Positions 27,896 through 57,689 of a stretch of DNA of 64,000 nt are shown here, in pieces (the first letter of the stretch is position 1; the number at the start of each line of letters is the position of its first letter). The stretch lies in the NCBI GenBank assembly GCA_963675665.1, contig OY776510.1:5078019-5142018 (forward strand). The letters are read 5' to 3'. The translations under genes and the position numbers were made by a program. The stretch comes from Spirochaetia bacterium (GTDB taxonomy: Bacteria; Spirochaetota; Spirochaetia; UBA9216). The notes under the pieces were generated by a model. The model saw only the letters and a list, made by a program, of their open reading frames with translations. It made no database searches and had not been told where the DNA came from.

Positions 27896-27913
27896 CGGAC
27901 GGCATCCCGTCCG
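27896..27913 (-). promoter_or_regulatory. 5'-UTR hairpin immediately upstream of the trpE Shine-Dalgarno
   Basis: CGGACGG-gatg-CCGTCCG followed by GGGGAGAAUCGGAUG on the transcript. Confidence 0.4.
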
Positions 27914-27922
27914 TTTCTGCAT

Positions 27923-27938
27923 ATAGTAACGTTACTAT
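27923..27938 (-). promoter_or_regulatory. perfect 16-bp palindromic operator ATAGTAACGTTACTAT overlapping the trp -10 and +1
   Basis: Its own reverse complement. Position is typical of a TrpR-like repressor site. Confidence 0.5.
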
Positions 27939-27962
27939 AAAAAGAAACGTGAAAACTGTCAA
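27934..27962 (-). promoter_or_regulatory. trp operon sigma70 promoter
   Basis: Minus strand reads TTGACA, 17 nt, TATAGT. Confidence 0.55.
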
Positions 27963-32964: not shown

Positions 32965-34467
32965 TTAAATTGAAGTTTCTTCTTTATTCTTTCTTTTTTC
33001 CCTGTACATTTCAAAATCTGCGGTCTGTATCATCTTCTCAATATCTTTATCAGCGCTGCAGGATACACAGAACCCTGCCGACAGACTGAGGTTGTGAGTG
33101 GTTTTAATATTAATTTTTGCAATATTCTCCCGGAGTCGTTTTACCAGTTTTGCTGCAAGTTCATGTTCGCATTCAGTTATCAGAACAACAAACTCATCGC
33201 CGCCTATCCGAAAAATGTAGTCGGTTTCCCTGAAAGTATTTTTCAGAGTCTCTGCAGCCTGCTGTATGAGCACATCACCTTCAGCATGGCCCAGGGTATC
33301 ATTCACAGTCTTCAACCCGTCGATATCTACAGAAAAAACGCCGCCCGGACGAAAATCCGTTTCACCCATGATAATCTTGTTAAAATATGCCCTGTTATAA
33401 ACACCGGTAAGCGCGTCATGATAACTGGTATATTCATATTGATTTCTGGAAATAACCAATTCTTCATAACGCTGAGCATTTGAAATAGCCAGCGATGCAA
33501 TTTTTATGATTGAATTAAAAAGATCAGTGTATTTATCAACATGTTTCGGGAAAAGAAAATCTCCAACCTCAATAATTCCGAATTTCTCGTCTCCGGATTT
33601 GAGCAATGCATAAAAGGTTTTATTTTCAGAGTCCATTATATACACTTGCTCTTCTTTAAATTCCAGAGTTTTTATTTTCCGGGGCGCATCAGCCCAATCT
33701 TCGCTGTAATTCCAGAAACAGCTTTTTGAGGCACCGAAGAGGATCGTCCAGATATGATCAAGCATTGATATAACATCCCGTTTGTATTCAGCGCCGGCTA
33801 TTCTGGACATGATATGCAAAACAGCTGAGTTTCTTGCATTCATATCCATCAACGCACGCATGTCATCCTGCTTTTCAGTCTTCAGATTTCGGACCCTCCA
33901 ATCGGTGACAATGCTTTTAAGAAGTGTTCTTATCGGCTCAAGACTAACCGGAATTGATCTGACCGGAAGGTCCAGATAAGCCGAAAGAGCTTTCAGCTTC
34001 TTGTCGGCCTCATCATAGATCCCGGTGTCGAGAAAAACAATTTTACTGCAGCAGCTTTTGTAAAATTCCCGGGCTGTCCCGATAGTAAATCCCTGCCTCT
34101 TTATATGTTCTTCCCAGTTGACAAGCCAGCCTGTTGTTACGACATAATATCCTTCCGCGGAAAAAAAACGGGCAAACTGGTCGCTGATCATGTGGGAATA
34201 GCAAAAAGCCGATTCGTAAACCGATAAAAACTTTTTATCATACTCATCTTTTCTGGGGGCCCTGCAGAGGTGACTGCATACAAGTACGGCAGCTTCATCG
34301 GGATTCGGTTTTTCCGCAATGCCGTTCTGAGAATTAAAAACAGGAATACCGCCGTCGCAAAAACTGTGAAAAGGAACAATATCCAGGTTTTCAGGCCCCT
34401 CATTTTCTACGAGATACCGGAATTCGGGGAGATAGTTCTCACATACATATACTGATAATCGGTTCAT
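32965..34467 (-). CDS. diguanylate cyclase (GGDEF) with N-terminal Cys-rich DUF1638-like domain
   Basis: C-terminal intact GGDEF (RIGGDEFVVL). The N-terminal 200 aa share conserved blocks with the N-terminus of the 949-aa protein at 47942-50791: a Cys early in the first strand, a VLVCSHLC / IVIGYGLCGRG block, TTGW / TEGW, and VFLDTG / VYIDTG. Confidence 0.8.
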   Translation of the reverse strand: MNRLSVYVCENYLPEFRYLVENEGPENLDIVPFHSFCDGGIPVFNSQNGIAEKPNPDEAAVLVCSHLCRAPRKDEYDKKFLSVYESAFCYSHMISDQFARFFSAEGYYVVTTGWLVNWEEHIKRQGFTIGTAREFYKSCCSKIVFLDTGIYDEADKKLKALSAYLDLPVRSIPVSLEPIRTLLKSIVTDWRVRNLKTEKQDDMRALMDMNARNSAVLHIMSRIAGAEYKRDVISMLDHIWTILFGASKSCFWNYSEDWADAPRKIKTLEFKEEQVYIMDSENKTFYALLKSGDEKFGIIEVGDFLFPKHVDKYTDLFNSIIKIASLAISNAQRYEELVISRNQYEYTSYHDALTGVYNRAYFNKIIMGETDFRPGGVFSVDIDGLKTVNDTLGHAEGDVLIQQAAETLKNTFRETDYIFRIGGDEFVVLITECEHELAAKLVKRLRENIAKINIKTTHNLSLSAGFCVSCSADKDIEKMIQTADFEMYREKRKNKEETSI

Positions 34468-35507
34468 TTCCTTTTTCCGTAGCCACCAGGCGGGTAGCGT
34501 CCGTATTCCTCTGCAGCCATGGATACAGCAAGAAGAGTTTTTTCCGGTACCTGCAAAGGTATTTCTCCATGAGAGTCCGACAGGATGAAACCGCCTCCCG
34601 GAGCTGCAGTTTTAACCAAAGCCCTGACTTTTTCAACGGCTGTTTCTTTATCCCATTCAGCCATTTCTATTCCGTTTAGGTTTCCCAATAACGTTATTCT
34701 TCCGGTCGAGACGTCTTTTATATGCTTCAACTCTTCGCCTGTCCCTATCCCGACAATCGGGCTGCCGAGGTTAATTATATCTTCCATTACCTGCAAAACC
34801 CTTCCGGAAGCAAGATGCACAGCAACCGGACCTTCTATTCCGGTAATTGTCCGACTGTCTACAGGGTAACCTGCAGACAGATACAATGACCTGTCGATCA
34901 TATCCGGAGACATCAGCGGATTAAAATAGCCGATGGCTGTTGCACCTGCCTTGAATTGTGCATTTGCGTAATTTATACAAAACTGTCGGTTAACCTGCAT
35001 CAAACGGTCAAACCTCGGCCTGTCAAAATATAATAGTTTCAGATATTTCTCAAATCCCATCTGCATTACGGGCAAAGAAAAAGGAGACATTACAATTCCG
35101 ATAACAGGCACTTTTCCGTTTGAATGAATCGCAAGTTCTCTGGTTACCTCAAGCACCTGTCTGAGGACAGGTACATCATCGATATCAGGTACTTCCATTG
35201 AATCAATATCGCTGCTTTTCCCGATGATACCTTCTCCGGCATTCGGAGGGGTTTCCGGTTGAAAGAGTACTTCTCCGCCCCACGCCTGTACTTCAACAGC
35301 AGCATAATGAAATGTATAATAACAGTCGGTCTGATACTTTTTCTGCATATGAATCTGTGTTTTAATAACATTTTCAGCCACTGAAAAGTAATTTTTAACC
35401 GAACAGCCCATTTCCTTGGCACCGTAGTGTGAAAACAGGAAGAAGACTGGTACTCTGTCGGGCTCCTTGTGGCCAAGCGTTTTCAGAACCCTTTCCATCG
35501 ACGTCAT
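34464..35507 (-). CDS. uroporphyrinogen-decarboxylase-family methyltransferase (MtaA/CmuA-like methylcorrinoid methyltransferase)
   Basis: N-terminal KEPDRVPVF block and an overall URO-D (TIM barrel) family length of about 345 aa. Overlaps the upstream corrinoid-protein gene by a few nt. Confidence 0.7.
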   Translation of the reverse strand: MTSMERVLKTLGHKEPDRVPVFFLFSHYGAKEMGCSVKNYFSVAENVIKTQIHMQKKYQTDCYYTFHYAAVEVQAWGGEVLFQPETPPNAGEGIIGKSSDIDSMEVPDIDDVPVLRQVLEVTRELAIHSNGKVPVIGIVMSPFSLPVMQMGFEKYLKLLYFDRPRFDRLMQVNRQFCINYANAQFKAGATAIGYFNPLMSPDMIDRSLYLSAGYPVDSRTITGIEGPVAVHLASGRVLQVMEDIINLGSPIVGIGTGEELKHIKDVSTGRITLLGNLNGIEMAEWDKETAVEKVRALVKTAAPGGGFILSDSHGEIPLQVPEKTLLAVSMAAEEYGRYPPGGYGKRK

Positions 35508-35511
35508 ATCA

Positions 35512-36165
35512 CTATTCACAGCCGCCCCTCCATGAATCCAGGTTTCCTGATAAATTCTCCAGAATCCCGAATATTTCTCCGGCATTCCCGGCACCCCGGC
35601 AGGCGCCTACTTTCTTATACAGATTCCGATCAAGCCGGAACGGCGCTCCGCCGACGACAATCGGTACTTCAGGACATTCCCGGGACATCCGGGAGGACAA
35701 CTCCTGTACAGCCAGGGCAGAAGGAAACATAAGCACTGATACAAGAAGAATCTGTATCTTGTACTCACGGATTTTAGAAATGATCTTTTCCGCATCAACT
35801 CCTGTACCAAGATCAAAAACAGGATACCTGTAATTTCTTACCAGGCTGGAGACAATCTTCATTCCAAGGCTGTGATGATCAAGATAGACTGCAGCCCCGA
35901 TAACGGGAAGAGACTCATCAGTCCTGTCTGATTCAGATAAAAGCGTCTTCAAAATCTCCTCACATATAACACCGCTCATATACACCTGAGCAAGAGATAC
36001 TTCACCGGATTCCCAGTTTGCCCCGACCTTTTCAAGCGCATACATCAGAGTCTCTCCCATACCGGTAATACCCTTCTCTTCTACCGCCTCTCTTAAAATT
36101 TTATCTACGCCGGTTCGGTCAACCGAAACAAGCCCTTCATATAAAGCCTGAACTGAATTATCCAA
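35512..36165 (-). CDS. corrinoid (cobalamin-binding) protein, MtaC/MtbC-like
   Basis: DxHxxG B12-binding motif (YLDHHSLGMKIV) in a Rossmann-like C-terminal half with an N-terminal helical cap. TTG start 9 nt after AAAGGAG. Confidence 0.75.
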   Translation of the reverse strand: MDNSVQALYEGLVSVDRTGVDKILREAVEEKGITGMGETLMYALEKVGANWESGEVSLAQVYMSGVICEEILKTLLSESDRTDESLPVIGAAVYLDHHSLGMKIVSSLVRNYRYPVFDLGTGVDAEKIISKIREYKIQILLVSVLMFPSALAVQELSSRMSRECPEVPIVVGGAPFRLDRNLYKKVGACRGAGNAGEIFGILENLSGNLDSWRGGCE

Positions 36166-37422: not shown

Positions 37423-37660
37423 CCGGAAACTTCAACAATACCGACTACGGTTTCAATTCAAAACCTTGATCTCATGGTATTTATCGGGTATATTTGGAAG
37501 AAAGAACAGGAGTGTCCTTGTAAGATGAAGAGATAGAAATAGAGTTTACAGATTATTCGGGTTTACCGACTGTTTTACTCTTTTTCGATCACAGATTCAT
37601 ACAGAGGGCATTTTTTTGTTTGCATAATTTTCATGCTTATTATTCCGTATTAATTACAAT

Positions 37661-37697
37661 TGATGCCCTGACATATCCCAAAATACCGGAGGCATCA
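37661..37697 (+). promoter_or_regulatory. leader hairpin sequestering the ABC-F Shine-Dalgarno
   Basis: TGATGCC-N23-GGCATCA. The 3' arm contains GGAGG and ends 1 nt before the ATG. A 20-codon uORF (MVFIGYIWKKEQECPCKMKR) lies at 37474-37536. Confidence 0.35.
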
Positions 37698-37698
37698 A

Positions 37699-39174: not shown

Positions 39175-39186
39175 AATAACAATCTG

Positions 39187-39939: not shown

Positions 39940-40994
39940 CTTTTTCGTCCTGCTATAAGCAGATAAATAAACAGAGGCCCGCCCGACAGGGATGTCAAGA
40001 TTCCTACAGGAAGAACCATAGGAGAAAGAACTGTTCTTGCCGCTGTATCCGCCGCTAAAAGGATTATTGCTCCGACCAGCGGAGAAGCAACCAGTAAAAA
40101 GCGGTGGTCTCCGCCAAGGATTTTCCTGGCGATATGCGGCCCCAGAAGGCCTACAAATGCTATTGTTCCAAAAAAGGACACTATTATTGCCGAAAGAATG
40201 GAGGCTGACAACATCCCGATTATTCTGACGACCCCGGTTTTTACACCGAGTCCCCTGGCCGTATCTTCTCCCGTATCCAAGGCATTAAAATTCCATCGAA
40301 AGTAAAAGAACAAAATATATACGGGAACCAGCACCAGAGCAATAATCAACAGAAAGTGCCGGTTTGCCCGGCCGAGATCTCCAAAGGTCCAGGATATTAT
40401 GCCGGCCAGCTGAATACTGTCGGCAAGATACTGCATGAGGGTAAGACCGGCCGAGAAAATTGAGCCGATCGCAATGCCCGCCAGCACCATACTTTCAGCC
40501 GAGATTTTGGTTAAAACGGTAAGCAGGAGAATCGCTGCTGTTGACAGGGAAGAGAAAACAAAAGCTGAAAAAGCGACTGTAAAGGAATCGCTTATAATAA
40601 TAGTTGATGTAGTGCCGGTTCCTGCTCCAAAAAAAACGATGGCAAACGACGCTCCAAAAGCTGCAGCGCTGGAAAGGCCCAGCGTATATGGAGATGCCAG
40701 CGGATTTCGAAGCACCGACTGCATGACCGTCCCGGAAAGGGCCAACCCTGCCCCTACAAGAAGTGCGGCAATTATCCTGGGCATCCGGACATCCCGGATA
40801 ATCCTTCCGGCACCGGTCATATCGAACCCGAAGATACCTGAAACCACCTCTTTCAGAGGTATTCTGATAGTCCCCGTCGAGACGGATATAATTACAAGCA
40901 AAGCAAGGAGCAGTCCTGTAACGATAAGAAAAACAATCTTTCTTCTTATATATCCCCTGTAATGGTAATATATCGAAGAGCCGTTATGAAGCAT
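39936..40994 (-). CDS. FecCD-family ABC permease (iron-chelate/cobalamin type)
   Basis: 352 aa, 9-10 TM, FecCD-like Gly-rich helices. Confidence 0.85.
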   Translation of the reverse strand: MLHNGSSIYYHYRGYIRRKIVFLIVTGLLLALLVIISVSTGTIRIPLKEVVSGIFGFDMTGAGRIIRDVRMPRIIAALLVGAGLALSGTVMQSVLRNPLASPYTLGLSSAAAFGASFAIVFFGAGTGTTSTIIISDSFTVAFSAFVFSSLSTAAILLLTVLTKISAESMVLAGIAIGSIFSAGLTLMQYLADSIQLAGIISWTFGDLGRANRHFLLIIALVLVPVYILFFYFRWNFNALDTGEDTARGLGVKTGVVRIIGMLSASILSAIIVSFFGTIAFVGLLGPHIARKILGGDHRFLLVASPLVGAIILLAADTAARTVLSPMVLPVGILTSLSGGPLFIYLLIAGRKR

Positions 40995-40996
40995 AT

Positions 40997-42145
40997 TTAA
41001 TTAAACCAGTCCACTCTTTCAGGGCCGGCTTTCTGCCGGGCAACAACAGTATCGTAATCCAGCGGCACTCCGAAGAAAAGGTTCCAAATCTCCTCAGCCT
41101 TATCTTTTATTGATACATCACCGTACAGCTCCGGATAACATACCTTACCGGTATAATAGACATTAATAAGCTGATTTTCCCAGTTGGTTCCGTAATATTT
41201 ATATACAAAGGTTGTATGAACTTCACGGTTTATAAATGCCGGAACCTGCTCTTCAAGGACCGTCCGGTTTGTCATAAACCCGGCTTTTGAAAGATTTACA
41301 TTTGCCGCGTCGATAAATATATAATCCGGGGAAGCCGCTATCAAATCTTCAAGCGACGTCATATATGGTTGAAGGTTTCCCGCGGGATTTGTGGGCATTA
41401 CATTTTCCGTACCCGTCAGTTCAAACGGAAGGTAGTCTCCTGTTGTACGGAGCAGATCGGCAGGCCCGTAGTACATCATACCGCCGGCATAAGCCTTTTG
41501 GGGAGCCTGTGATTTCACAGCCCGGGCTTCAAGATCCTTTATAACAGCATCAATACCCGCTACCAGCTCTTCAGCTCTTTCTTCCCTGTCCAGCACCAGG
41601 CCCAATGTTTTAAGTTGATTATAAAACAGTTCCAGGTCAAAAAACTCCACATCAATATTGACGCCGAATACAGGTATTCCCAAAACCTCCTGAAGATGAT
41701 CCAGCTGGCCGGTATCTACGGCAGAGGATATAATGACATCCGGAGCCGCCGCAATTATTCCTTCATGGTTTTCCCCGCTTCCTATGCCCGGCAACTGCCG
41801 AAGTTCCGGAAAAGCCAAACGGTAAGTTGCCAGATAAAAAAAGTCATGAACTGTTTTTTCCCTGCCGTGTCCCGAATCTTCAACAGCAATCACCTTGTCC
41901 GCAGCATTCAGATAACTTACAAGTCTTAAAGAGCCGGCATCAAGAGCAATAATGCTGTTGACTTCTCCCGGTACCGGGACATCACGACCCCTCATATCGG
42001 TAACAGTAAAAGTGTTACCGGGTTCTGATATTTCCTGCTGCGGCATGGCAAAAAGACCCGAAAATATGCAGAAGACGAAAAGACCGATAAACAAAACCTT
42101 TATAATCGACTGTCGATATACCCTGTAATTGCGAGCGTTCAACAT
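40997..42145 (-). CDS. ABC periplasmic binding protein (class III; BtuF/FhuD-like)
   Basis: 382 aa with a signal/anchor. Two-lobe PBP pattern for chelated metals/corrinoids. Confidence 0.7.
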   Translation of the reverse strand: MLNARNYRVYRQSIIKVLFIGLFVFCIFSGLFAMPQQEISEPGNTFTVTDMRGRDVPVPGEVNSIIALDAGSLRLVSYLNAADKVIAVEDSGHGREKTVHDFFYLATYRLAFPELRQLPGIGSGENHEGIIAAAPDVIISSAVDTGQLDHLQEVLGIPVFGVNIDVEFFDLELFYNQLKTLGLVLDREERAEELVAGIDAVIKDLEARAVKSQAPQKAYAGGMMYYGPADLLRTTGDYLPFELTGTENVMPTNPAGNLQPYMTSLEDLIAASPDYIFIDAANVNLSKAGFMTNRTVLEEQVPAFINREVHTTFVYKYYGTNWENQLINVYYTGKVCYPELYGDVSIKDKAEEIWNLFFGVPLDYDTVVARQKAGPERVDWFN

Positions 42146-45512: not shown

Positions 45513-45860
45513 TTATTCCGGGGCAAGCCCGGAAGCCCTCCTTTCCGGAATACTCGCAGGTTCCTCACCTGAGCCGGCAAATGATTCCGACATATAAAGA
45601 CCGCAGTAACAGTGGCCGAATTCACGTACATCCTCGGCACAGTATTTACACGGACAGATTACGTCCCGGTCTTTCTCACGTTCGCCCCATGCTTCCCTGC
45701 ACGGGCACTGAAAATATCCGAATTGCTGATAGTTATTATAAAGCCCTTCTATGACAGAATCGCGAAAATCAGCATCAGGATTCAGAACCCATCCGTTTTT
45801 GTCCGCCGCATTTTCAGCAAATTCGGCGACATTTTCTATTGCAAGTTTTTTTTCTCCCAT
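45513..45860 (-). CDS. ferredoxin-thioredoxin reductase catalytic subunit-like protein
   Basis: CPC-x16-CPC-x13-HCYC spacing matches the FTR catalytic Fe-S/disulfide motif. Confidence 0.65.
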   Translation of the reverse strand: MGEKKLAIENVAEFAENAADKNGWVLNPDADFRDSVIEGLYNNYQQFGYFQCPCREAWGEREKDRDVICPCKYCAEDVREFGHCYCGLYMSESFAGSGEEPASIPERRASGLAPE

Positions 45861-45862
45861 AA

Positions 45863-46159
45863 TCAGCCCAGCTTTTCAAGCCACTGGTCTTTTTTGAAAC
45901 CCTTGATAAAATCAGAGTCGTCAATTATCAGAAAAGGATAGAGGATATCCGGTGAAAAGCGGCTTTTCACATCATCCTTCAGCGTAATTCTTTCGTCGCG
46001 ATCAAGCTTGTCGACATCAACAAAACTGTATGACCAGCCTTCTTCATCAAGAAAAGCTTTAGCGCGTTTGCAGAATCCGCAGGTCGACAGCCCAAGAAAA
46101 ACAAGTTCTTTGCCTGCTCTTGAACCTTCAATTTTTGTAAAATTCGTTAAATCAATCAT
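45863..46159 (-). CDS. glutaredoxin/thioredoxin-like small redox protein
   Basis: CGFC active site in a 98-aa thioredoxin fold. Three nt upstream of the FTR-like gene. Confidence 0.6.
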   Translation of the reverse strand: MIDLTNFTKIEGSRAGKELVFLGLSTCGFCKRAKAFLDEEGWSYSFVDVDKLDRDERITLKDDVKSRFSPDILYPFLIIDDSDFIKGFKKDQWLEKLG

Positions 46160-46296
46160 TTGATAAATATACTATAAAATCACGGGTTTTCCAAATAAAA
46201 GCAGACCGGAAGAAAGAACAGTATAAACCATTCTTCCTCCCGGTCAATTTGATAAAGGAGAATTGAGCCAGCAAAAGCTCTCATGAAAAACTATAG

Positions 46297-46340
46297 AGCC
46301 GTTCCGTTAAATGTTGTTTTCGGAGGGGTTGGAACGGCTC
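46297..46340 (-). terminator. htrA terminator
   Basis: GAGCCGTTCC-N24-GGAACGGCTC followed by UAUAGUUUUUCAU on the minus strand. Confidence 0.45.
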
Positions 46341-46386
46341 CGAAAAATCAGGGATAACGCACTTGTCCTTACGTCCCCCCTGAAAC

Positions 46387-47853
46387 CTATTCCTTTACTA
46401 TACCGATAATAGCCTCGCGGTTACCGCGATAGATTCTCAGCATAACTTCATTATCATCAGCCGCATTAAGGTCCGTATAGAAATCATTCATACTCTTTAT
46501 TCTTTTATTATCCACTCTGAGAATGATATCGCCGGGCCTTAAACCGGCAGCTTCTGCGGGGCTGCCTTTGGTTACATTGGCTACGATTACATTGCCTTTA
46601 TTCGTCTCAAGATTTAAAGACTCACGAACATCTTCTGTTGCTTCGACTACAGTAAGTCCCGGCCAGACGTTTATGCTTCCGTCCTGCGCAATATTCTTTT
46701 CGTCGTCACGGCGGCCGAGCCTGAGGCTCAGGGTTGTTTTCTTGCCGTCGCGGTAAAGCTCAAAAGAAGTCCATCGGTCGGGAGGCAGATTTCCAATTGC
46801 CTTTACAAGATCATTTCTGTTGGAAATTGTTTTATCACCTACCCTGGTAATGAAATCACCGGCAAGCAGTCCGCCTTCTTCAGCAGGCGAATCAATAAAA
46901 ACATCATTTACAAAAGCGCCGTCCAGGTTCTCCAGTCCCATTCCGGCTTTGCTTTCGTCGGATATGTCGCGAACATTAACGCCGAGCCATCCGTATACAA
47001 CACTTCCGGATTCAATAAAATCTTCTATGGCTTTTTTTGCATTATTAATAGGTATTGCAAAACCCAGCCCGTTGCTTCCTCCCGACTGGGTGGCAATCCA
47101 TGAATTGATTCCGATTACTTCACCCTGCAGGTTGACCAGAGCGCCCCCTGAATTGCCGGGGTTTATAGCAGCATCGGTCTGAATATAGTCGGTGAAACTG
47201 ACATTCGGTGAAAAACCGTCCGTTTCGCGGCCTACTGCGCTGACTATACCTCCGGTAAAGGTAGCTTTAAATCCCATCGGGTTACCTACTGCAAAAACCC
47301 AGTCGCCGACAAAAAGGTCATCCGAATTGCCAAGGACTGCAACCGGAACAGCTTCCGATGTTTCGATCTTGATTAATGCCAAATCACGTCTCTCATCGCT
47401 GCCTACAAGAGAAGCCTCAAATTCCCTTCCGTCATAGAAGGTTACTTCTATCTCTTCTGCGCCGTTTACAACATGATGATTGGTTAATATATATACATTT
47501 TTTCCGGAATCTCTTACTATTACGCCTGAGCCTAATCCCTGCTGCCTTAATTCCCTCGGTTCTTCTTTTTCCTGTCCGTTTGAATCAGGGTTTCTTCCAA
47601 AAAAGAAGTTGAAAGCATCCGGAAATGCCTGTGTTTCAATAATATTTACGGTATTTACTTCAACTACAACCGGTAATGTTTTTTCAGCTACTTCCCGGAA
47701 TGTCATTTGATAGGCTTCAGCCAAACCCGCGGCTGAACTTCCTGTGCCGACACTGCCTGTTCTTTGCGCAAAAACGCTTCCTGTCGCAGAAACAGCCAGC
47801 AATACAGTAAGAACAACTGTCAATACTTTCCTGTTTGATAATTTTGCATTCAT
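46387..47853 (-). CDS. htrA: Do/DegP-family serine endoprotease with two PDZ domains
   Basis: Signal peptide, trypsin-like GNSGG, two PDZ segments. Confidence 0.85.
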   Translation of the reverse strand: MNAKLSNRKVLTVVLTVLLAVSATGSVFAQRTGSVGTGSSAAGLAEAYQMTFREVAEKTLPVVVEVNTVNIIETQAFPDAFNFFFGRNPDSNGQEKEEPRELRQQGLGSGVIVRDSGKNVYILTNHHVVNGAEEIEVTFYDGREFEASLVGSDERRDLALIKIETSEAVPVAVLGNSDDLFVGDWVFAVGNPMGFKATFTGGIVSAVGRETDGFSPNVSFTDYIQTDAAINPGNSGGALVNLQGEVIGINSWIATQSGGSNGLGFAIPINNAKKAIEDFIESGSVVYGWLGVNVRDISDESKAGMGLENLDGAFVNDVFIDSPAEEGGLLAGDFITRVGDKTISNRNDLVKAIGNLPPDRWTSFELYRDGKKTTLSLRLGRRDDEKNIAQDGSINVWPGLTVVEATEDVRESLNLETNKGNVIVANVTKGSPAEAAGLRPGDIILRVDNKRIKSMNDFYTDLNAADDNEVMLRIYRGNREAIIGIVKE

Positions 47854-47941: not shown

Positions 47942-50791
47942 TTATACAACAGGCAGACCGGTAATTTCAGCGCGGTAATCACGGCCCAGAAACACATAGT
48001 TACCATCGCTTGTCGGGCTTACCCGGTTCTCTGCAGTCCATACAATACGGTTTTCATCAGTTCCGGCTTTCACAGCGTCTTTTCGCACTTCTATTGCGAT
48101 ATTCCGTTCCAGAAAATCACAGGCATCCTCATAGCTTTCAAACCGGACAGTATTGTCAAAACCGTTAACGATAAAACTGCCGTCGGCGCCGGGAATAACA
48201 GAGGCCTCACGCTGTACCGTAACCATACTGCAGACTGCGCCTACAGCATTCGCCACATCGCCGTCTTCCGGTATGATTAATTCGGTATCGAGGTGCTTTG
48301 CCAGTTTCGACAGAAGCCACGGCGCGGCAGCTCCAACACCCACCAGCCGGCTGTTCAGCGTCGGGGTAAGCCTCAGAGAGTGCGACTTGCCTTTAAGATT
48401 GCCCAGCAGGGCTTTAAAAGTCGAATTGTCAAAGACAGAATCAGCCAGATCTCCCGGAACTTCAAGCTCCTGCAGAACAAGGGTCTGCAACAGATTATCC
48501 GCGATCATATCCAGTACGGCCTCGCCCATATCACCTGAATCATCTCCCCATATGGTTCTGTACAGATTAACTATACGCCTGGACAGCTCCGGCGGCCACA
48601 TACTGATGTCTCCCGAGGCAGTAAGCAAATCCGTAGGAGTAAGCCCGAACCTCTGAATTACTGCCGTGTTCTCAAGTCTTGCAGTGGCAAGAATTTTCCA
48701 GAGACCATGCTTCAGTTTTATCGCCAGTTCCTTGACCGAATGCGGGCGCTGTTTGAGTATATTAATAATGCTATCTTCATCATAACTCAGTTCCCAATCA
48801 GGGGGTCTGCCCGTCAGAGCAAGAATCTCCATTGCAGCTGTAGAGCCGCAATAATCCGAATGAATATCTTCAATAAAGGAAACAGCCTGTTCACAGCCTT
48901 CTGTTTCATTCAGCCGTCCGAAAGGCGCCACGCGACGGGGGCCCACCTTCAGTTCACGATTTTCAATCAGGATACGGCTGTCCCCCCCGGCGCCCAAAGT
49001 ATACATATCTACAGCCTTGATGTGGGTTCGCCATCGACCCACCCTGGCGCCTTCCGCGTCGAGGCGGATTCTGCCGTTTCTGATAAGTCCTATATCCGAG
49101 GTTGTTCCGCCTACATCGATTATTACGGCGTCTGAACCTTCAGGCCGGGTGCCCCCGGTTTTATCATGAGAGCTGATTAAAAACCTGGCGCCGGCAATAC
49201 TCGCTGCCGGCCCGGAAAGGGTTGTTTCAACCGGATGAAGAACCGCCTTTTCACGGCTCATCAGCGCGCCGTCGCCGCGGACAATCATTATTCCGCCGCC
49301 GATGTGCATTACATGCAGGGCCTGCTCAAGTTCCCCGATAAACTGCTCAAGAAGCGGTATAATTCCGGCGTTCAGCACAGCAGTATTGGCGCGTACGAAG
49401 AAATTCAAGGTAGTGGAGAGTTCATGTCCGCAGCATACGCCAAGCCCGGTTTCAGCTTCAATTATGCGTTTAATCTGGAGCTCATGTACCGCGTTTACGG
49501 TACTGCCGTACCCCGATACGGCAAAAGCCTCAACATGCTCACGTTCAATCAATTCGGAAGCTACCCGTTTAATTTCTTTTTCATCTACATGCTCAAGTTC
49601 ATCACCCATAATACTGAGCCGTCCGCTGACAATCCTCCATGGATCATGTTCAATTTTACCTGTCGGAATTTCTCCGAGGGGCATTACAATAAGCCCTACT
49701 TTTCGGCCGCGGTCTTCAACGATGGCGTTGGTTGCAAGTGTGGTTGAAACAACTGTAATACCGATTTTCGACAACTTTCCGGGATCAAGCTTCTCAAGCG
49801 CTCCGGTGATGCCTACTGTGAAATCCCATTTTGTTGTAGGAGACTTTGCCTTTTCAACAACACAGTCGTTGTCGAAATCATAAATTACAGCATCGGTATA
49901 AGTCCCTCCGGCATCTATGCCGAGACCAAATCCTTTTCGAATTCTGTTTTCAGCATGTTCGCTCTCTGTTTCATCCTGGACAGGCAGCGCGCGCTCCCAG
50001 AGAGAAGTTGCGCCTATGTTCGGGTCGAATGCATAAAGCCCGTGCTTCAGCGGATCATATGCGGTACAGTATCGCGGTGGTACTACAAGGATCTCATCGT
50101 CAGTATAGATGCTGTTCAGCATCGCAGTAAAAAGATCCCTGCTTCCGTCCAGTTTCTCGTATTTCCAGCCCAGTTCTTCAGCAAGATCGCGGGCGTAGTT
50201 TTCATAAATATGGCCTTTTTCCGATCCCGTATCAATATAAACCGAACGGTTATAATTCCGTTTCCAGGTATTCAGAAAATCGTAAATGTCTGCGGCATTT
50301 TCATCGCCGTATTTATTCTTTATATTCTCATAACCTACATTGATATCCCAGTTTCCCTTAAACTGTTTATCCTTCTTCCTTTTGACTGAAAGAGGCTGGG
50401 TTTTATGCTCGTACCAGCCTTCGGTCATATAAAGCGTGCCGGGATTCCCTGCAAATTGTTCCTTATACCGTTTATGCGAACCGAGAAACATTGCGATGCA
50501 GTCATGAACTCTGGGAATGATCAGCGGAAGACTACCGGCTTGTAACCCGACCGTGCCGCGTCCGCAGAGTCCGTATCCGATAACAATTGCGTCATAATCA
50601 GCAAGTCCCGCATCAACTTCTTCCGAAGCCCGGGTGACAGCCTCCTGCAATTCCTTTCGCAGTCTTTCCGGTTCTTCATGCAGCCCTGCTGCAAGGTATT
50701 CTTCATGTATTATTAAATTATCTTTTACGGCTGCGGCTTTAATTTCATTTTCGAGTACACCGCAGGCGATAATCTTCAGGGATCGTCTCAT
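47942..50791 (-). CDS. fusion protein: N-terminal Cys-rich DUF1638-like domain + tandem hydantoinase/oxoprolinase-type ASKHA ATPase domains
   Basis: N-terminal 200 aa are homologous to the GGDEF protein N-terminus (IACGV, YGLCGRG, HDCIAMFLGS, TEGW, YIDTG). Then GLGIDAGGTYTDAV (hydantoinase A N-terminal domain) and IIDVGGTTSDIGLI (second ASKHA half). Confidence 0.7.
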   Translation of the reverse strand: MRRSLKIIACGVLENEIKAAAVKDNLIIHEEYLAAGLHEEPERLRKELQEAVTRASEEVDAGLADYDAIVIGYGLCGRGTVGLQAGSLPLIIPRVHDCIAMFLGSHKRYKEQFAGNPGTLYMTEGWYEHKTQPLSVKRKKDKQFKGNWDINVGYENIKNKYGDENAADIYDFLNTWKRNYNRSVYIDTGSEKGHIYENYARDLAEELGWKYEKLDGSRDLFTAMLNSIYTDDEILVVPPRYCTAYDPLKHGLYAFDPNIGATSLWERALPVQDETESEHAENRIRKGFGLGIDAGGTYTDAVIYDFDNDCVVEKAKSPTTKWDFTVGITGALEKLDPGKLSKIGITVVSTTLATNAIVEDRGRKVGLIVMPLGEIPTGKIEHDPWRIVSGRLSIMGDELEHVDEKEIKRVASELIEREHVEAFAVSGYGSTVNAVHELQIKRIIEAETGLGVCCGHELSTTLNFFVRANTAVLNAGIIPLLEQFIGELEQALHVMHIGGGIMIVRGDGALMSREKAVLHPVETTLSGPAASIAGARFLISSHDKTGGTRPEGSDAVIIDVGGTTSDIGLIRNGRIRLDAEGARVGRWRTHIKAVDMYTLGAGGDSRILIENRELKVGPRRVAPFGRLNETEGCEQAVSFIEDIHSDYCGSTAAMEILALTGRPPDWELSYDEDSIINILKQRPHSVKELAIKLKHGLWKILATARLENTAVIQRFGLTPTDLLTASGDISMWPPELSRRIVNLYRTIWGDDSGDMGEAVLDMIADNLLQTLVLQELEVPGDLADSVFDNSTFKALLGNLKGKSHSLRLTPTLNSRLVGVGAAAPWLLSKLAKHLDTELIIPEDGDVANAVGAVCSMVTVQREASVIPGADGSFIVNGFDNTVRFESYEDACDFLERNIAIEVRKDAVKAGTDENRIVWTAENRVSPTSDGNYVFLGRDYRAEITGLPVV

Positions 50792-50872: not shown

Positions 50873-51130
50873 TCAGAGCTTTTCAACCAGAACCCTGTAG
50901 CTTAAATCATCAGCAGAATCAATACAGAAAAAAAACAGATCGCCTGTATCCGAATCCAGCGTAAATTCCAGTGTATCAAAACTGATAACAGGACTGACAG
51001 GCGGTTCATAAAAATAATAATACTTGTTACGCAGAACTTCAGCGCCGTTACGATCTATCAGCTCAAGGCGAATACTGTAACTCAAACCTTCGGCCGCGCC
51101 GGCCACATACCAGGCATTGTCAAGTTCCAT
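50873..51130 (-). CDS. hypothetical protein (possibly the 3' part of a frameshifted gene)
   Basis: 85-aa ORF starting 13 nt after the stop of 51144-51536, in a different frame. Confidence 0.3.
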   Translation of the reverse strand: MELDNAWYVAGAAEGLSYSIRLELIDRNGAEVLRNKYYYFYEPPVSPVISFDTLEFTLDSDTGDLFFFCIDSADDLSYRVLVEKL

Positions 51131-51143
51131 TGAAAACCTGTAA

Positions 51144-51536
51144 TCACCCGAGCCCCAGGCCTGTTATATAATCAATATTGCTCGTTATGGGAAGATATCT
51201 TGTATAGTCCCCAAAAGCAGAGAATATAAAAGATCTCATTGTCCCGGGTTCCAGTTCGGCGGTATTAACCCGAAAAGAATTGCTCTCAAAATATTTCAGC
51301 CTGAAATCAAACCGGTGCAGGTTATTCCCTCCTGCAAAGGAATCATATCGACAACTCAAACTGTAGCCCGGCATAACAGTTCTGTACCAGAGTGAAGAAT
51401 TAGTCAATTCGGCAATAGTGAAAAAATCAACCGAGACATCCGCATTGAACAGCAGACCGTTCTTGCTGACGGGAAGAGAAAAGAGGTTGCAGGCAAGCAG
51501 TAGAAAAAAAAGACAGACGGTAAATTTTTTTTTCAT
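51144..51536 (-). CDS. hypothetical secreted protein
   Basis: Signal peptide MKKKFTVCLFFLLLACNLFS. Confidence 0.4.
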   Translation of the reverse strand: MKKKFTVCLFFLLLACNLFSLPVSKNGLLFNADVSVDFFTIAELTNSSLWYRTVMPGYSLSCRYDSFAGGNNLHRFDFRLKYFESNSFRVNTAELEPGTMRSFIFSAFGDYTRYLPITSNIDYITGLGLG

Positions 51537-54890: not shown

Positions 54891-57689
54891 GTGAAGATTA
54901 AAATATTTTCACCGTTGATCATATTTCTCTTCAGTACCGTATTCGGGCTTTTCTCCCAGTCTATTAATAATATTCAGTTTCCTCCTTTCCTCGGATGGAA
55001 ACAGATTGAAACAGAACGTTGTATTTTAATTTTTCCCGAAAGCCTTGAGGCAAAGGCATCGGAAATTGCCGGCATGATCGATTCATTCTACACTGCCGAC
55101 GAAGCAAGCCTGGAGACTGAAACATCAAAATGGCCGATCATCATTAACAATACGCTTTTTTATTCAAATGCTTATGTTCTAGGAGCACCGAGGCATTCGC
55201 AGCTGTACACAACCCCCATACAGGATAATTCTTTCGGAACAGGCAACTGGCTTTCACTTATCTGGAGCCATGAACTTCGCCACATCGTGCAAAACGAAAA
55301 AATGATTCGCGGGTTCACTGCTCTGTCCGACTGGATTGCCGGAGAATACGGATCAAGCGGGATGACCCATTTTGCGCTGCCGAAATGGGTAATGGAGGGC
55401 GATGCCGTTCTGACCGAAACGCTCGTATCTCCCGGAGGAAGGGGAAGGCTTGCTGATTTTGAACGGGAACTTCGGGCAAACAGCCTGAACCGGATCAGGT
55501 ACAGTTATTTTAAATCCAGCCAGGGTTCATATGCATCATATTCACCCCGTACCCCAAGCTGGTATGTGTCCGGCTATCATCTGTGCACATACATCCGCAG
55601 GGAATTCGGAATTGACGCATTCAACAGAATTATGGAGATTGCCGCCGATTTCTCTTTTACTCCGTTAATCCTGAATATTGCCGTCCAAAAAGTAACCGGG
55701 GAAAAAATTGAAACCCTTTATAATAACTGCCTGGATGAACTGACTGAATTATGGGAAGCCCAGCTTGAACAAAGGGAATTTACCCGGGTTGATATAATAA
55801 CATCCGGCAGAGAGGACAACGCTGATTATTATCCCCTGGGGAAATTTGAAAACGGAAATATTGCGGCGTTAAGAACTTCCCTGTCGGCGCTTTATACTCT
55901 CGTCGAAATAAATGAAAACGGAACTGTAACGGAACTGAGAAAGATCAATCCCTTCGACAAAAATATATCATTCAACGGAACAACCTTTTGCTGGGCCGAA
56001 ACAAAAAAAGATATAAGATGGGGAAACAGATCATGGTCGAATATCAGAATCTACACCCCGTCATCCGGCGATTACAGGGTAATTACGGACAAAACAAGAT
56101 ATCTTTCGCCTTCAATAAGCCCCGATGGAAAAAGAATCGCTGCAGTGGAGATTACCGAAGAGCTGAACAGCTATATTTCAGTAATTGATGCAGAAAACGG
56201 AAAACTCATATCAAGATTTGCCGAACCTTCAGGGGCCTCGCCGATGCAAACATGCTGGACGGACGACGGGACCGGTATTGTCTATATACGTCAGCAGAAC
56301 TGGATGAAGTCTCTGCGACTGCTTGAGCCCGAAACAAAAATAAACCGGCCTTTGACCTCCCCGGATATCTGGAGCATTTCTTCTCCTGATGTAAAGGACA
56401 ATGTTGTTTATTTCGTTTCGGAAGAAACAGGGCTTGAGAATATACATGCTTTGCAGCTTCAGGATGGAAACAGGCTTCCCGAAAACCGGCTGATTGTATC
56501 CCGGCCGTACGGCACAGCCTCTCCGGCGGCCGAAGACGGAACGCTTTATTTTGCTGATTATACAGTCTCGGGGTTTAAGATCTCCGCTGTGCCTTTACCG
56601 GCAACCGCGACAAGTCCCGTTATACCTGCCGAAAGCGGGCATGTCGATTATTTCGGAGCTCTTGCAGACCAGGAGCCGTTCTTTGGGTTCGCCGGGGCGG
56701 AAACTCACTCAAAAACTGCAGAATATACGATTTCCGATTACTATCCTTTTACCGGTCTTTTCAATTTCCACAGCAGGAGTATTGTTACTTCGCTGAGCGG
56801 CACGGGAATAGCCGCAAGCCTTCAGGCCGACAGTATAATGAACGACTCAAGCGGCCGGATATACTTCGGCTATGATCCGGACGAAACTGAACTCATGGCA
56901 GGTATGACCGGGGCTTACGCAGGGTTCTTTCCCGTGCTGCTTTACGGAGCAGAACTGCAGTCCCCGGCTATCTCGCCGGGTTCGGCGTTCGAATCTTTCA
57001 TCTACGGCGGCTTATGGCTTCCGCTGGATTTCTCAGGCGGCATTCTGAACCATACGCTCAGTCTGCAGGGATTATTTCTTATGGAGAACCAGCTCTACCC
57101 TGCAGAGTCGGCTGCAACAGCGCTAAAAGCGGATATTAACTGGAAATTAACACAGGTCCGGGCCAGACGGGACCTTGTGCCGCCGCTGGGTATTACCCTG
57201 AAAGGAAGCTGGTATTACAGTCTTGAACCGTCGTATTATAATTTTGTATTCGGAGAATGCAGATTTTATATTCCGGGCCTTCTGGATAATCAAGGCTTCA
57301 GCTTTAAACTGCAAGGTAATTATAATATCGGATCAGGATTGCTTAATAAAAGCCCTGAAACAGTCCCGAGAGGTCTTAATGAAGACAATTATGCCGTCCC
57401 GCTGTTATTCAACAGCAGTTTCGAGTACATACTGCCGCTGGCATACCCGGATTTTGCTGTCGGCAGTATAATTTATATTCCGCGATTGTATATGAACTGT
57501 TTTCTTGATACGGCCCTCATTCCAGACTCGCAAATCCTGCAAACCGCCGGCGTTGAACTTTTTACCGACTTTCACCTTTTCAACCATTATTATCCGTTCA
57601 GCGCAGGAATAAGACTTATCTATAACACCGTGGAAAAGAAAATGAGGCTGGAAGATACCGCCTTCAGCATCGGAATAGATCTTTTTTAA
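54891..57689 (+). CDS. large secreted protein: HExxH zinc-metallopeptidase-like N-terminal domain + TolB-like beta-propeller repeats + C-terminal beta-rich region ending in Phe
   Basis: Signal peptide. WSHELRHIVQ HExxH motif. TolB-like repeats (YLSPSISPDGKRIAAV...). C-terminal ...IGIDLF. Confidence 0.55.
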   Translation: MKIKIFSPLIIFLFSTVFGLFSQSINNIQFPPFLGWKQIETERCILIFPESLEAKASEIAGMIDSFYTADEASLETETSKWPIIINNTLFYSNAYVLGAPRHSQLYTTPIQDNSFGTGNWLSLIWSHELRHIVQNEKMIRGFTALSDWIAGEYGSSGMTHFALPKWVMEGDAVLTETLVSPGGRGRLADFERELRANSLNRIRYSYFKSSQGSYASYSPRTPSWYVSGYHLCTYIRREFGIDAFNRIMEIAADFSFTPLILNIAVQKVTGEKIETLYNNCLDELTELWEAQLEQREFTRVDIITSGREDNADYYPLGKFENGNIAALRTSLSALYTLVEINENGTVTELRKINPFDKNISFNGTTFCWAETKKDIRWGNRSWSNIRIYTPSSGDYRVITDKTRYLSPSISPDGKRIAAVEITEELNSYISVIDAENGKLISRFAEPSGASPMQTCWTDDGTGIVYIRQQNWMKSLRLLEPETKINRPLTSPDIWSISSPDVKDNVVYFVSEETGLENIHALQLQDGNRLPENRLIVSRPYGTASPAAEDGTLYFADYTVSGFKISAVPLPATATSPVIPAESGHVDYFGALADQEPFFGFAGAETHSKTAEYTISDYYPFTGLFNFHSRSIVTSLSGTGIAASLQADSIMNDSSGRIYFGYDPDETELMAGMTGAYAGFFPVLLYGAELQSPAISPGSAFESFIYGGLWLPLDFSGGILNHTLSLQGLFLMENQLYPAESAATALKADINWKLTQVRARRDLVPPLGITLKGSWYYSLEPSYYNFVFGECRFYIPGLLDNQGFSFKLQGNYNIGSGLLNKSPETVPRGLNEDNYAVPLLFNSSFEYILPLAYPDFAVGSIIYIPRLYMNCFLDTALIPDSQILQTAGVELFTDFHLFNHYYPFSAGIRLIYNTVEKKMRLEDTAFSIGIDLF

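What the first reader, a model, noticed from the sequence alone, without database searches (positions are those of the whole stretch)
47942..50791. 949-aa fusion of the same DUF1638-like domain to a tandem hydantoinase/ASKHA ATPase: candidate ATP-dependent partner of the corrinoid module
The N-terminal 200 residues share the conserved Cys/His/TxGW/DTG blocks of the GGDEF protein's N-terminus, which makes two paralogous copies of this rare domain about 12 kb apart. The remainder is a hydantoinase-A-type double ASKHA ATPase (GIDAGGTYTD, DVGGTTSD). Known reductive activators of corrinoid enzymes (RACE/RamA) are also ASKHA ATPases, but with ferredoxin-like modules. From memory, I do not recall a DUF1638-ASKHA architecture being described. 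Hypothesis: an alternative ATP-dependent activator or chaperone for the corrinoid protein, or an ATP-dependent carboxylase/hydrolase whose substrate specificity comes from the DUF1638 domain.
Basis: partly seen in the sequence, partly recalled or inferred. Interest (0 to 1): 0.8.

Follow-up and report, generated by a model that had tools for sequence, protein, structure and literature searches.

The report
DUF1638 fused to HyuA-type ATPase
This gene encodes a real, widespread but unstudied protein that joins a domain of unknown function (DUF1638, needed for a split B12-dependent methionine synthase in another bacterium) to a hydantoinase-type ATPase; its relatives sit inside vitamin-B12 (corrinoid) methyltransferase gene clusters, so it is probably an ATP-driven helper of such enzymes that works with, not instead of, the known activator.

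Summary
The ORF is real: 47942-50791, minus strand, 949 aa. Pfam finds DUF1638 (aa 33-225), Hydant_A_N and Hydantoinase_A. The AlphaFold2 model is confident, and about 500 residues superpose on the HyuA-type subunits of acetone and acetophenone carboxylase and caprolactamase. No HyuB partner was found near it.

The architecture is not rare. More than 100 protein clusters carry it, across Spirochaetes, Desulfobacterota, Planctomycetota, Armatimonadota and others. They are named only "DUF1638 domain-containing protein" or "N-methylhydantoinase A".

The second DUF1638 copy, in the GGDEF protein, passes Pfam's threshold only weakly. It shows no direct similarity to the first copy.

The corrinoid link is supported at family level. 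Unfused homologues of the ATPase lie in MttB / corrinoid protein / pterin-methyltransferase / RACE clusters in 26 of 42 loci, and 8 of these also carry a separate DUF1638 gene, four of them directly beside the ATPase gene. Fused genes show such a link in 11 of 42 loci. The link is not supported locally: spirochaete relatives keep a synteny of two-component system, fusion gene and HtrA, with no corrinoid genes.

RACE co-occurs with the family, so this is not a RACE substitute. The most likely role is an ATP-dependent accessory (activation, repair or cofactor handling) of corrinoid methyltransferases. The mechanism is inferred, not shown.

The parts
47942..50791 (-). Whole gene: 949-aa DUF1638 / HyuA-type ASKHA ATPase fusion (stop codon included).
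   Evidence: ORF list and translation. Pfam domains. Homologues at 40-72% identity over 100% of the length. AF2 model with pLDDT 88.9 and pTM 0.76.
49982..50791 (-). N-terminal DUF1638 domain (aa 1-270; Pfam match aa 33-225 = nt 50117-50695). It is a two-lobe alpha/beta fold. Invariant C10, H38, C76, D97 and C98 lie at or just after the C-terminal ends of strands 1-4. GTxYxxxGW and NYxR/IDTG blocks are also present.
49451..49924 (-). Hydant_A_N region (aa 290-447), the first ASKHA subdomain. It carries the phosphate-1 motif GIDAGGTYTD (nt 49892-49921).
   Evidence: Pfam E 6e-26. Motif position. Invariance of the motif core (D293, G295-D300) in 114 sequences.
48932..49393 (-). Hydantoinase_A region (aa 467-620), the second ASKHA subdomain. 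It carries the phosphate-2 motif DVGGTTSD (nt 49094-49117) and GGDS (nt 48977-48988).
   Evidence: Pfam E 1.5e-27. PDB profile hits cover positions 282-607 only: 6yra caprolactamase alpha (deposited as 5-oxoprolinase), 7hk5 N-methylhydantoinase, and acetone and acetophenone carboxylase.
47945..48931 (-). Family-specific C-terminal third (aa 621-949). It has a helical insertion, then returns to the ASKHA core (GVGAAAP at nt 48320-48340; DVANAVGA adenosine-type motif at nt 48236-48259), and ends in an alpha/beta domain. It is shared by fused and unfused relatives.
32965..34467 (-). Context only: a 500-aa protein with a divergent DUF1638-like N-terminus and a GGDEF domain. It is the last gene of a small operon together with the two genes listed next.
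   Evidence: Pfam: GGDEF E 2e-33; DUF1638 E 9e-8, partial. No direct similarity to the fusion's domain.
34464..36165 (-). Context only: a corrinoid protein (35512-36165) and a MtaA/URO-D-family methyltransferase (34464-35594), upstream of the GGDEF gene. No tested link to the fusion gene.
   Evidence: Pfam B12-binding, B12-binding_2 and URO-D. NCBIfam scores are far below the equivalog cut-offs. The proximity is not conserved in relatives L084 and L085.
46204..47853 (-). Context only: an HtrA/DegP-type protease gene (46387-47853) directly downstream, followed by a strong terminator-like hairpin (46204-46245). It may be co-transcribed with the fusion gene.
   Evidence: Pfam Trypsin_2 plus two PDZ domains. 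19-bp stem terminator. Synteny kept in L084 and L085.

Best explanation
The gene encodes a self-contained two-module protein.

The C-terminal 660 residues are a HyuA-type ASKHA ATPase with intact nucleotide-binding motifs. This is the ATP-binding subunit type of hydantoinase, oxoprolinase, caprolactamase and acetone carboxylase. Here it lacks the HyuB catalytic partner those enzymes need.

The N-terminal DUF1638 domain takes the partner's place. It is a two-lobe alpha/beta cleft with invariant Cys10, His38, Cys76, Asp97 and Cys98.

The family most likely serves corrinoid (B12)-dependent methyltransferase systems as an ATP-dependent accessory factor. In this view, DUF1638 engages the corrinoid, the corrinoid protein or the RACE activase. 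The ATPase supplies the work for activation, repair or cofactor loading or exchange. It acts alongside the RACE/RamA reductive activase, not instead of it.

What is shown: the architecture, its conservation, the neighbourhood statistics and the alternative fusions.

What is inferred: the physical target (a corrinoid protein), the role of the Cys/His site, and what ATP hydrolysis achieves.

In this spirochaete the gene is an orphan. It may serve a housekeeping corrinoid enzyme, for example a methionine synthase lacking its reactivation domain. That last point is speculation.
For: 1. Architecture and intact ATPase motifs.

2. Gene neighbourhoods of unfused homologues. These are 31-41% identical to aa 288-947, including the family-specific C-terminal third.
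- 26 of 42 loci have a corrinoid-methyltransferase component within 10 kb.
- 11 loci have an MttB-family gene directly upstream on the same strand, at -22 to -235 nt.
- Among their 145 nearest ORFs, Pfam finds MTTB 13, Pterin_bind 10, B12-binding 10, RACo 6 and DUF1638 6, and no Hydantoinase_B among the 25 commonest families.

3. Rosetta-stone argument. A separate DUF1638 gene lies near the unfused ATPase gene in 8 of 42 loci. It lies directly downstream in L056, L062 and L070, and adjacent in L069. Those adjacent copies are the closest stand-alone relatives of the fused domain among the fetched loci (E 2e-31 to 2e-39).

4. Some fused genes sit in complete clusters.
- L016: BCCT, fusion, sigma54 activator, MttB, corrinoid protein, pterin methyltransferase (MTII), RACE, BCCT.
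- L035 (Desulfofustis glycolicus): MTII, corrinoid protein, URO-D methyltransferase, TRAP transporter, RACE, fusion.
- RACE lies within 10 kb in 5 of 42 fused loci.

5. The only members of the fused clade with neither the DUF1638 domain nor a truncated contig end, and with any corrinoid context (L030, L034, L036), lie in corrinoid / MTII / URO-D / RACE clusters.

6. DUF1638 is also fused to the homocysteine-binding module of methionine synthase, with a B12-binding gene directly upstream (P0325/L088).

7. Literature.
- A stand-alone DUF1638 gene is required, with a RamA-like protein, for split methionine synthase in Phaeobacter inhibens, and co-occurs with it (PMC5764234).
- It is induced on methylated amines in Ruegeria (PMC12478193).
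- An unfused 668-aa 'HydA/unknown' protein inside the mtgB/mtgC/mtgA cluster of 'Ca. Formimonas warabiya' is strongly more abundant on glycine betaine (PMC9768040).
Against: - Most fused genes (31 of 42 loci) have no corrinoid gene within 10 kb. Their 73 immediate neighbours share no family in more than two loci.
- In this window's lineage the conserved neighbours are a two-component system and HtrA. No RACE, MttB or pterin methyltransferase exists in the 64 kb.
- No chance control with random loci was run, so enrichment for the fused group is only roughly estimated.
- No binding, cofactor or activity data exist.
- Phaeobacter needs DUF1638 and a RamA-like protein, but no HyuA-like ATPase was reported there. 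The ATPase is therefore not universally required.
Confidence: 0.48

Rival explanations
1. It is a small-molecule ATP-dependent enzyme of the hydantoinase / oxoprolinase / lactamase / carboxylase kind. DUF1638 would replace HyuB as the catalytic partner. The enzyme would act on a metabolite of methylated-amine catabolism (for example a lactam, hydantoin or creatinine-type compound), or on some unrelated substrate.
For: - The closest solved relatives are all such enzymes.
- M24/creatinase-like and DAO-type FAD oxidoreductase genes recur nearby in some loci.
- Most fused genes are orphans.
Against: - DUF1638 alone is needed for methionine synthase function in Phaeobacter, where no exotic substrate is involved.
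- DUF1638 is fused to the Hcy-binding MetH module next to a B12-binding gene.
- The unfused gene sits between the MTI and MTII genes rather than with catabolic enzymes.
- NCBIfam equivalog scores are far below cut-off, for example caprolactamase alpha at 114 bits against 1000.
Confidence: 0.2
2. It is a stand-alone alternative reductive activator that replaces RACE/RamA. The Cys/His site of DUF1638 would act as the redox centre, and the ASKHA ATPase would drive Co(II)-to-Co(I) reduction.
For: - The layout is analogous to RACE: a redox module plus an ASKHA ATPase.
- Three invariant Cys plus His and Asp could bind an Fe-S cluster or a metal.
- No RACE gene is present in the window.
Against: - RACE genes are present in the same clusters as both fused and unfused members, often adjacent.
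- No ferredoxin-type motif or Pfam Fe-S domain is found.
Confidence: 0.1
3. DUF1638 is a ligand-sensing domain, and the protein is a sensor or regulatory ATPase. In this spirochaete it would be tied to the adjacent two-component system and HtrA envelope-stress unit rather than to corrinoid enzymes.
For: - DUF1638 is found fused to GGDEF (in the window) and to GGDEF plus HD-GYP (P0339).
- It has a PBP/LacI-like two-lobe fold.
- The synteny response regulator / histidine kinase / fusion / HtrA is conserved in three spirochaetes, and the genes may be co-transcribed.
Against: - The synteny is limited to close relatives. Other phyla show unrelated neighbours.
- It does not explain the corrinoid-cluster embedding of the family.
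Confidence: 0.1

Closest known systems
HyuA-type subunits of ATP-dependent hydantoinase / 5-oxoprolinase / caprolactamase / acetone and acetophenone carboxylases (Pfam PF05378 + PF01968)
   Different: No HyuB/Hydantoinase_B partner near it or near any of 84 homologous loci. It has an N-terminal DUF1638 domain. Its C-terminal third has no sequence match to those enzymes. NCBIfam equivalog scores are about 10-fold below cut-off. Its genomic company is corrinoid methyltransferases.
RACE / RamA / RACo reductive activators of corrinoid enzymes (Fer2 + RACo_middle + RACo_C_ter)
   Same: An ASKHA-superfamily ATPase encoded in corrinoid methyltransferase clusters. ATP-dependent service of a corrinoid protein is the proposed role.
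   Different: No ferredoxin domain and no RACo domains. It belongs to a different ASKHA subfamily. It co-occurs with RACE instead of substituting for it.
Stand-alone DUF1638 proteins (PGA1_c13340 of Phaeobacter inhibens; SPO2162 of Ruegeria pomeroyi)
   Same: Same Pfam domain. Genetically tied to B12-dependent methyl transfer and to a RamA-like protein (PMC5764234, PMC12478193).
   Different: Those are proteins of about 220-260 aa without an ATPase. Here the domain is covalently joined to a HyuA-type ATPase.
ASKHA-type reactivases and chaperones of adenosylcobalamin enzymes (DdrA/PduG, EutA, GlmL/MutL)
   Different: All scores are below family cut-offs. The client enzymes are different (radical AdoCbl enzymes rather than methyltransferases). 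No DUF1638 domain.
Ga0180325_114738 of 'Candidatus Formimonas warabiya' DCMF ('HydA' / unknown, 668 aa)
   Same: By size, 'hydantoinase' label and position between mtgB and mtgA it appears to be an unfused member of the same ATPase family (its sequence was not compared here). It is highly abundant on glycine betaine (PMC9768040).
   Different: It is not fused to DUF1638. It has not been characterised either.

Membership tests
Pfam DUF1638 (PF07796) | Score above the Pfam gathering threshold over the whole profile. | tested here: met
   136.4 bits against a cut-off of 27, profile positions 2-161 of 161.
Pfam DUF1638 (PF07796), for the GGDEF protein at 32965-34467 | Score above the Pfam gathering threshold. 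| tested here: met
   32.6 bits against 27, but only profile positions 60-161. No direct similarity to the fusion's domain.
Hydantoinase/oxoprolinase HyuA-type ATPase | Hydant_A_N plus Hydantoinase_A domains and ASKHA phosphate motifs. | tested here: met
Functional ATP-dependent hydantoinase / oxoprolinase / acetone carboxylase enzymes | A HyuB (Hydantoinase_B) catalytic partner encoded with HyuA, or fused to it. | tested here: not met
   No Hydantoinase_B match in the protein. None in the annotated window ORFs. None among the 25 commonest Pfam families of the 73 + 145 nearest neighbours of homologues. The rest of the genome could not be checked.
Caprolactamase alpha / acetophenone carboxylase subunits (NCBIfam equivalogs) | Score above the equivalog cut-off. 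| tested here: not met
   113.8 bits against 1000; 53.4 against 1500; 36.8 against 1250.
RACE / RamA / RACo corrinoid activases | N-terminal ferredoxin-type Fe-S domain plus RACo_middle and RACo_C_ter ASKHA domains. | tested here: not met
   None of PF00111, PF17651 or PF14574 is found in the protein. They are found in neighbouring genes of homologues.
RACE / RamA / RACo corrinoid activases | ATP-dependent Co(II)-to-Co(I) reduction of a corrinoid protein. | not testable with these tools
   This needs biochemistry.
GlmL/MutL methylaspartate mutase accessory protein | Score above the NCBIfam / Pfam cut-off. | tested here: not met
   NF040745 gives 22.8 bits against 475. PF13941 gives 21 bits against 27, on aa 291-337 only.
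Accessory component of corrinoid-dependent methyltransferase systems (operational definition) | Conserved co-location with corrinoid protein, MTI (MttB or URO-D), MTII and RACE genes. | tested here: inconclusive
   Met for unfused relatives (26 of 42 loci, with immediate adjacency). Met for a minority of fused genes (11 of 42). Not met for this window or its closest relatives.

The most novel reading that the evidence does not exclude
The HyuA-like ATPase plus DUF1638, whether fused or encoded side by side, would be a second, so far unrecognised ATP-dependent maintenance machine for corrinoid methyltransferases. It would be widespread in anaerobic bacteria and in methyl-reducing methanogens.

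Possible roles are a cofactor loading or exchange chaperone, or a co-activator working with RACE, analogous to the reactivases of adenosylcobalamin enzymes.

One extension rests on my memory only. The pair might correspond to the never-cloned, ATP-autophosphorylating 'methyltransferase activation protein' (MAP) purified from Methanosarcina barkeri in 1996. I could not read those papers. I also could not show that Methanosarcina has members of this family. The only hints are predicted hydantoinases MA4395/MA4396 next to mtaCB2, and a MA4396 frameshift selected during methanol-to-trimethylamine switching.
Probability: 0.3. Interest if true: 0.8.

Novelty: new variant of a known kind. Interest (0 to 1): 0.6.

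Why it matters
Corrinoid methyltransferases drive methylotrophic methanogenesis, acetogenic and sulfate-reducer demethylation of glycine betaine, carnitine and methoxylated aromatics, and methionine synthesis in many anaerobes. Their only known maintenance factor is the RACE/RamA reductive activase.

DUF1638 has been a genetically required but unexplained component since 2018. A highly expressed 'HydA/unknown' protein has been seen in a glycine-betaine cluster.

Here the two are shown to be one unit: fused in a large clade and adjacent in another. They travel with RACE, MttB, corrinoid proteins and pterin methyltransferases. That turns two loose ends into one testable hypothesis: an ATP-dependent accessory step in corrinoid enzyme upkeep.

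It also corrects the routine 'N-methylhydantoinase A' annotation of many proteins.

Tried and rejected
- **Direct paralogy of the two DUF1638 regions.** BLASTP, a subfamily HMM and hhalign all gave non-significant results. Only the broad Pfam model joins the two regions.
- **A cobalamin riboswitch or any Rfam RNA in the window.** None reached gathering score.
- **The small upstream ORFs (50873-51130 and 51144-51536) as remnants of the 290-aa gene found at that position in L085.** No similarity.
- **The MAP papers.** Daas 1996, Wassenaar 1996 (PMC178596) and Ferguson 2009 (PMC2629093) are not held. One broad literature search was wasted on 'RamA' matching 'Raman' and 'Ramadan'.
- **Looking for Methanosarcina members** with a Methanomassiliicoccus query. 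The top 120 hits were all Methanomassiliicoccales, so the search was uninformative.
- **The afdb50 fold library** was unavailable.
- **My first ORF filter** lost true genes in high-GC loci to longer antisense ORFs. I redid the analysis with unfiltered ORFs and homology clustering.
- **Local linkage to the corrinoid operon in the window.** Rejected, because it is absent in L084 and L085.
Full report
**1. Observation**

The interval 47942-50791 holds a 949-aa ATG ORF on the minus strand.

Pfam finds three domains:
- DUF1638 (PF07796) at aa 33-225, E 1e-39.
- Hydant_A_N at aa 290-447, E 6e-26.
- The first half of Hydantoinase_A at aa 467-620, E 1.5e-27.
- A sub-threshold MutL match also falls on the phosphate-1 loop.

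Their core residues are invariant in 114 full-length homologues, as are GGDS, GxGA and the VxxA-GA core of the DVANAxGA motif. The ATPase therefore looks functional.

The window protein differs at two residues from a database entry that sits on a 5.38-Mb NCBI contig. The closest named relatives are Spirochaeta and Spirochaetales MAGs.

**2. The second DUF1638 copy**

The 500-aa GGDEF protein (32965-34467, minus strand) is the last gene of an operon with a corrinoid protein and a MtaA/URO-D-family methyltransferase. It passes Pfam's DUF1638 threshold only narrowly: 32.6 bits against 27, covering profile positions 60-161.

Direct comparisons of the two N-termini fail:
- BLASTP gives E 6.5.
- An HMM of the fused-type domain gives E 0.02, and hhalign gives 2% probability.

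In a joint alignment the GGDEF N-terminus keeps three Cys, TGW and DTG but lacks His38 and Asp97. The two regions are distant members of one family, not close paralogues. The genes are 13.5 kb apart.

**3. How common the architecture is**

A search of 5.8 billion proteins returned 3,886 hits at E up to 1e-5. Nearly all of the top 120 clusters carry the same three-domain architecture at about 930-990 aa and 40-72% identity. They come from Spirochaetes, Planctomycetota, Desulfobacterota, Sumerlaeota and others. They are named only 'DUF1638 domain-containing protein' or 'N-methylhydantoinase A/oxoprolinase/acetone carboxylase beta subunit'.

Against 1.84 billion 50%-identity representatives, the DUF1638 domain finds 1,540 clusters at E up to 1e-3. 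Of the best 150:
- 43 are full fusions.
- About 13 are truncated fusions.
- About 80 are stand-alone proteins of 225-270 aa.

The architecture is catalogued and common, but only four papers in the searchable library mention DUF1638. None describes the fusion.

**4. Structure**

The AlphaFold2 model of the whole protein is confident: pLDDT 88.9, pTM 0.76.

Sequence profiles match solved structures only over positions 282-607.

The invariant C10, H38, C76, D97 and C98 lie at or just after the C-terminal ends of strands 1-4 of the first lobe. That is the usual active-site or ligand edge of such folds. Whether they bind a metal, a cluster or a corrinoid is inference.

**5. Genomic context of relatives**

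A scan of one genome per species gave 80 loci. With six loci fetched by exact protein look-up they make 84 homologous loci. I called ORFs and clustered them by homology. I then annotated the cluster representatives and nearest neighbours with Pfam.

Two groups emerge, which also separate in a neighbour-joining tree of the ATPase part.

(a) Unfused ATPase homologues:
- They are 660-700 aa and 31-41% identical to aa 288-947, including the family-specific C-terminal third.
- They occur in Methanomassiliicoccales, Methanomethylophilaceae, Anaerolineae, Halanaerobiaceae, Syntrophomonadaceae and others.
- 26 of 42 loci have a corrinoid-methyltransferase component within 10 kb.
- 11 loci have an MttB-family gene directly upstream on the same strand.
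- 8 loci have a separate DUF1638 gene. It is immediately downstream in L056, L062 and L070, and adjacent in L069.
- RACE-type genes are present in 7 loci.
- Among the 145 nearest ORFs, Pfam counts MTTB 13, Pterin_bind 10, B12-binding 10, RACo 6 and DUF1638 6.

(b) The fused clade:
- 11 of 42 loci have such a component.
- L016 is a complete cluster: BCCT, fusion, sigma54 regulator, MttB, corrinoid protein, pterin methyltransferase (MTII), RACE, BCCT.
- L035 (Desulfofustis glycolicus) and L046 read: MTII, corrinoid protein, URO-D, transporter, RACE, fusion.
- Otherwise the gene is an orphan. The 73 immediate neighbours fall into 115 Pfam families, none present in more than two loci.

Hydantoinase_B is not among the commonest neighbour families in either group.

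L030, L034 and L036 nest inside the fused clade but lack the DUF1638 domain. They lie in corrinoid / MTII / URO-D / RACE clusters.

**6. Local context**

In the window the gene lies downstream of an OmpR-type response regulator, a histidine kinase and two small unannotated ORFs. It lies upstream of an HtrA protease, a strong terminator, a glutaredoxin and a ferredoxin-thioredoxin-reductase-like gene.

This synteny is kept in two spirochaete relatives at 62-71% identity. Neither has corrinoid genes within 10 kb.

The window has no RACE, MttB or pterin methyltransferase and no riboswitch. The proximity to the corrinoid / MtaA / GGDEF operon is therefore probably incidental.

**7. Other DUF1638 fusions and literature**

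Two further architectures appeared:
- P0325 joins the homocysteine-binding module of methionine synthase (S-methyl_trans) to DUF1638. A B12-binding gene lies directly upstream.
- P0339 is GGDEF + HD-GYP + DUF1638.

Published work adds three points:
- Price et al. showed that a stand-alone DUF1638 gene is required, together with a RamA-like protein, for the three-part methionine synthase of Phaeobacter inhibens, and that the two co-occur. They made no functional proposal (PMC5764234).
- In Ruegeria the DUF1638 and RamA proteins rise on methylated osmolytes (PMC12478193).
- In 'Ca. Formimonas warabiya' a 668-aa 'unknown/HydA' protein between mtgB and mtgA is strongly more abundant on glycine betaine (PMC9768040).

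**8. Interpretation**

The evidence ties three things together: the HyuA-like ATPase family, DUF1638, and corrinoid-dependent methyl transfer. The support comes from adjacency, from one ancient fusion, from an independent DUF1638-MetH-module fusion, and from genetics on DUF1638.

RACE genes sit in the same clusters, so the protein is an additional factor and not an alternative activator.

The ATPase lacks HyuB, and DUF1638 occupies the partner position. I therefore favour an ATP-driven accessory role on the corrinoid protein or cofactor (activation support, repair, loading or exchange), with confidence about 0.5.

The rivals are:
- A small-molecule lactamase- or carboxylase-type enzyme (0.2).
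- A RACE-independent reductive activator (0.1).
- A sensor or regulatory role tied to the local two-component system and HtrA unit (0.1).

**9. Verdict**

- The protein is a member of a catalogued but uncharacterised family.
- The new element is the comparative argument that joins two published loose ends into one testable hypothesis.
- Interest: 0.6.

Noticed in passing
window 32965-36165 (minus strand); also L089 1197-3503: An operon of corrinoid protein, MtaA/URO-D-like methyltransferase and DUF1638-like/GGDEF diguanylate cyclase. A second architecture, GGDEF + HD-GYP + DUF1638 (P0339), exists elsewhere. DUF1638 may therefore also serve as a sensory input to c-di-GMP signalling, possibly reporting corrinoid or methyl-donor status.
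   Followed up: partly
L088 1-2053 (protein P0325): A fusion of the homocysteine S-methyltransferase module (PF02574) with DUF1638, directly preceded by a B12-binding domain gene. This is an independent Rosetta-stone link between DUF1638 and split methionine synthase. The contig is only 2.3 kb, so no further context is available.
   Followed up: partly
L030, L034, L036 (ATPase genes at about 10000-12000): Members nested inside the fused clade in the NJ tree that lack the DUF1638 domain, an apparent secondary loss. All three sit in corrinoid / MTII / URO-D / RACE clusters, and no separate DUF1638 gene was detected within 10 kb.
   Followed up: partly
L045 and L051 (about 9965-14084); L086 12004-12731: Methanomassiliicoccus carries two tandem paralogues of the unfused ATPase. 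In another Methanomassiliicoccales genome the gene is followed by two small DGC-domain (PF08859) genes, whose starts overlap the stop of the gene before each.
   Followed up: no
L046 9986-12794: In a Desulfocapsaceae MAG the fusion gene is split into at least three ORF fragments (frameshifts, or a pseudogene or assembly error). It still lies downstream of MTII, corrinoid protein, URO-D and RACE.
   Followed up: no
window 45513-46159 (minus strand): A glutaredoxin plus a ferredoxin-thioredoxin-reductase catalytic-subunit-like gene pair, just downstream of the HtrA terminator. The pair is conserved at the same position in spirochaete relatives L084 and L085.
   Followed up: no
window 36379-42145: An ApbE flavin transferase gene, an ABC-F type ATPase, and a Peripla_BP_2 (BtuF/FhuD-like) binding-protein gene at 40997-42145, followed by two unscanned ORFs (39187-40994) that may complete an ABC transporter. 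These lie right next to the corrinoid operon and could be a corrinoid or metal uptake system. No cobalamin riboswitch was found.
   Followed up: no
window 54891-57689 (plus strand): A 932-aa ORF with no Pfam family (only a faint TolB-propeller hit). Large ORFs of 942 and 977 aa, with no Pfam match or only a faint Tricorn_N hit, occupy the same position in L084 and L085. In the window and L084 it lies next to a DUF2207_C membrane protein gene.
   Followed up: no
window 50873-51536 (minus strand): Two small ORFs (85 and 130 aa, the latter with a signal-peptide-like N-terminus) between the histidine kinase and the fusion gene. They have no Pfam or NCBIfam match and are unrelated to the 290-aa gene at that position in L085.
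   Followed up: yes
literature: Methanosarcina acetivorans MA4395/MA4396: Predicted hydantoinases lie next to mtaCB2 (PMC11619418). A MA4396 frameshift arose in a population evolved for faster methanol-to-trimethylamine switching (bioRxiv 10.1101/2025.05.05.652248). Whether these genes belong to the family described here was not testable.
   Followed up: partly
window 22161-27962 (minus strand): An ordinary tryptophan biosynthesis operon: anthranilate synthase, fused TrpG-TrpD, fused TrpC-TrpF and TrpB-like genes.
   Followed up: no
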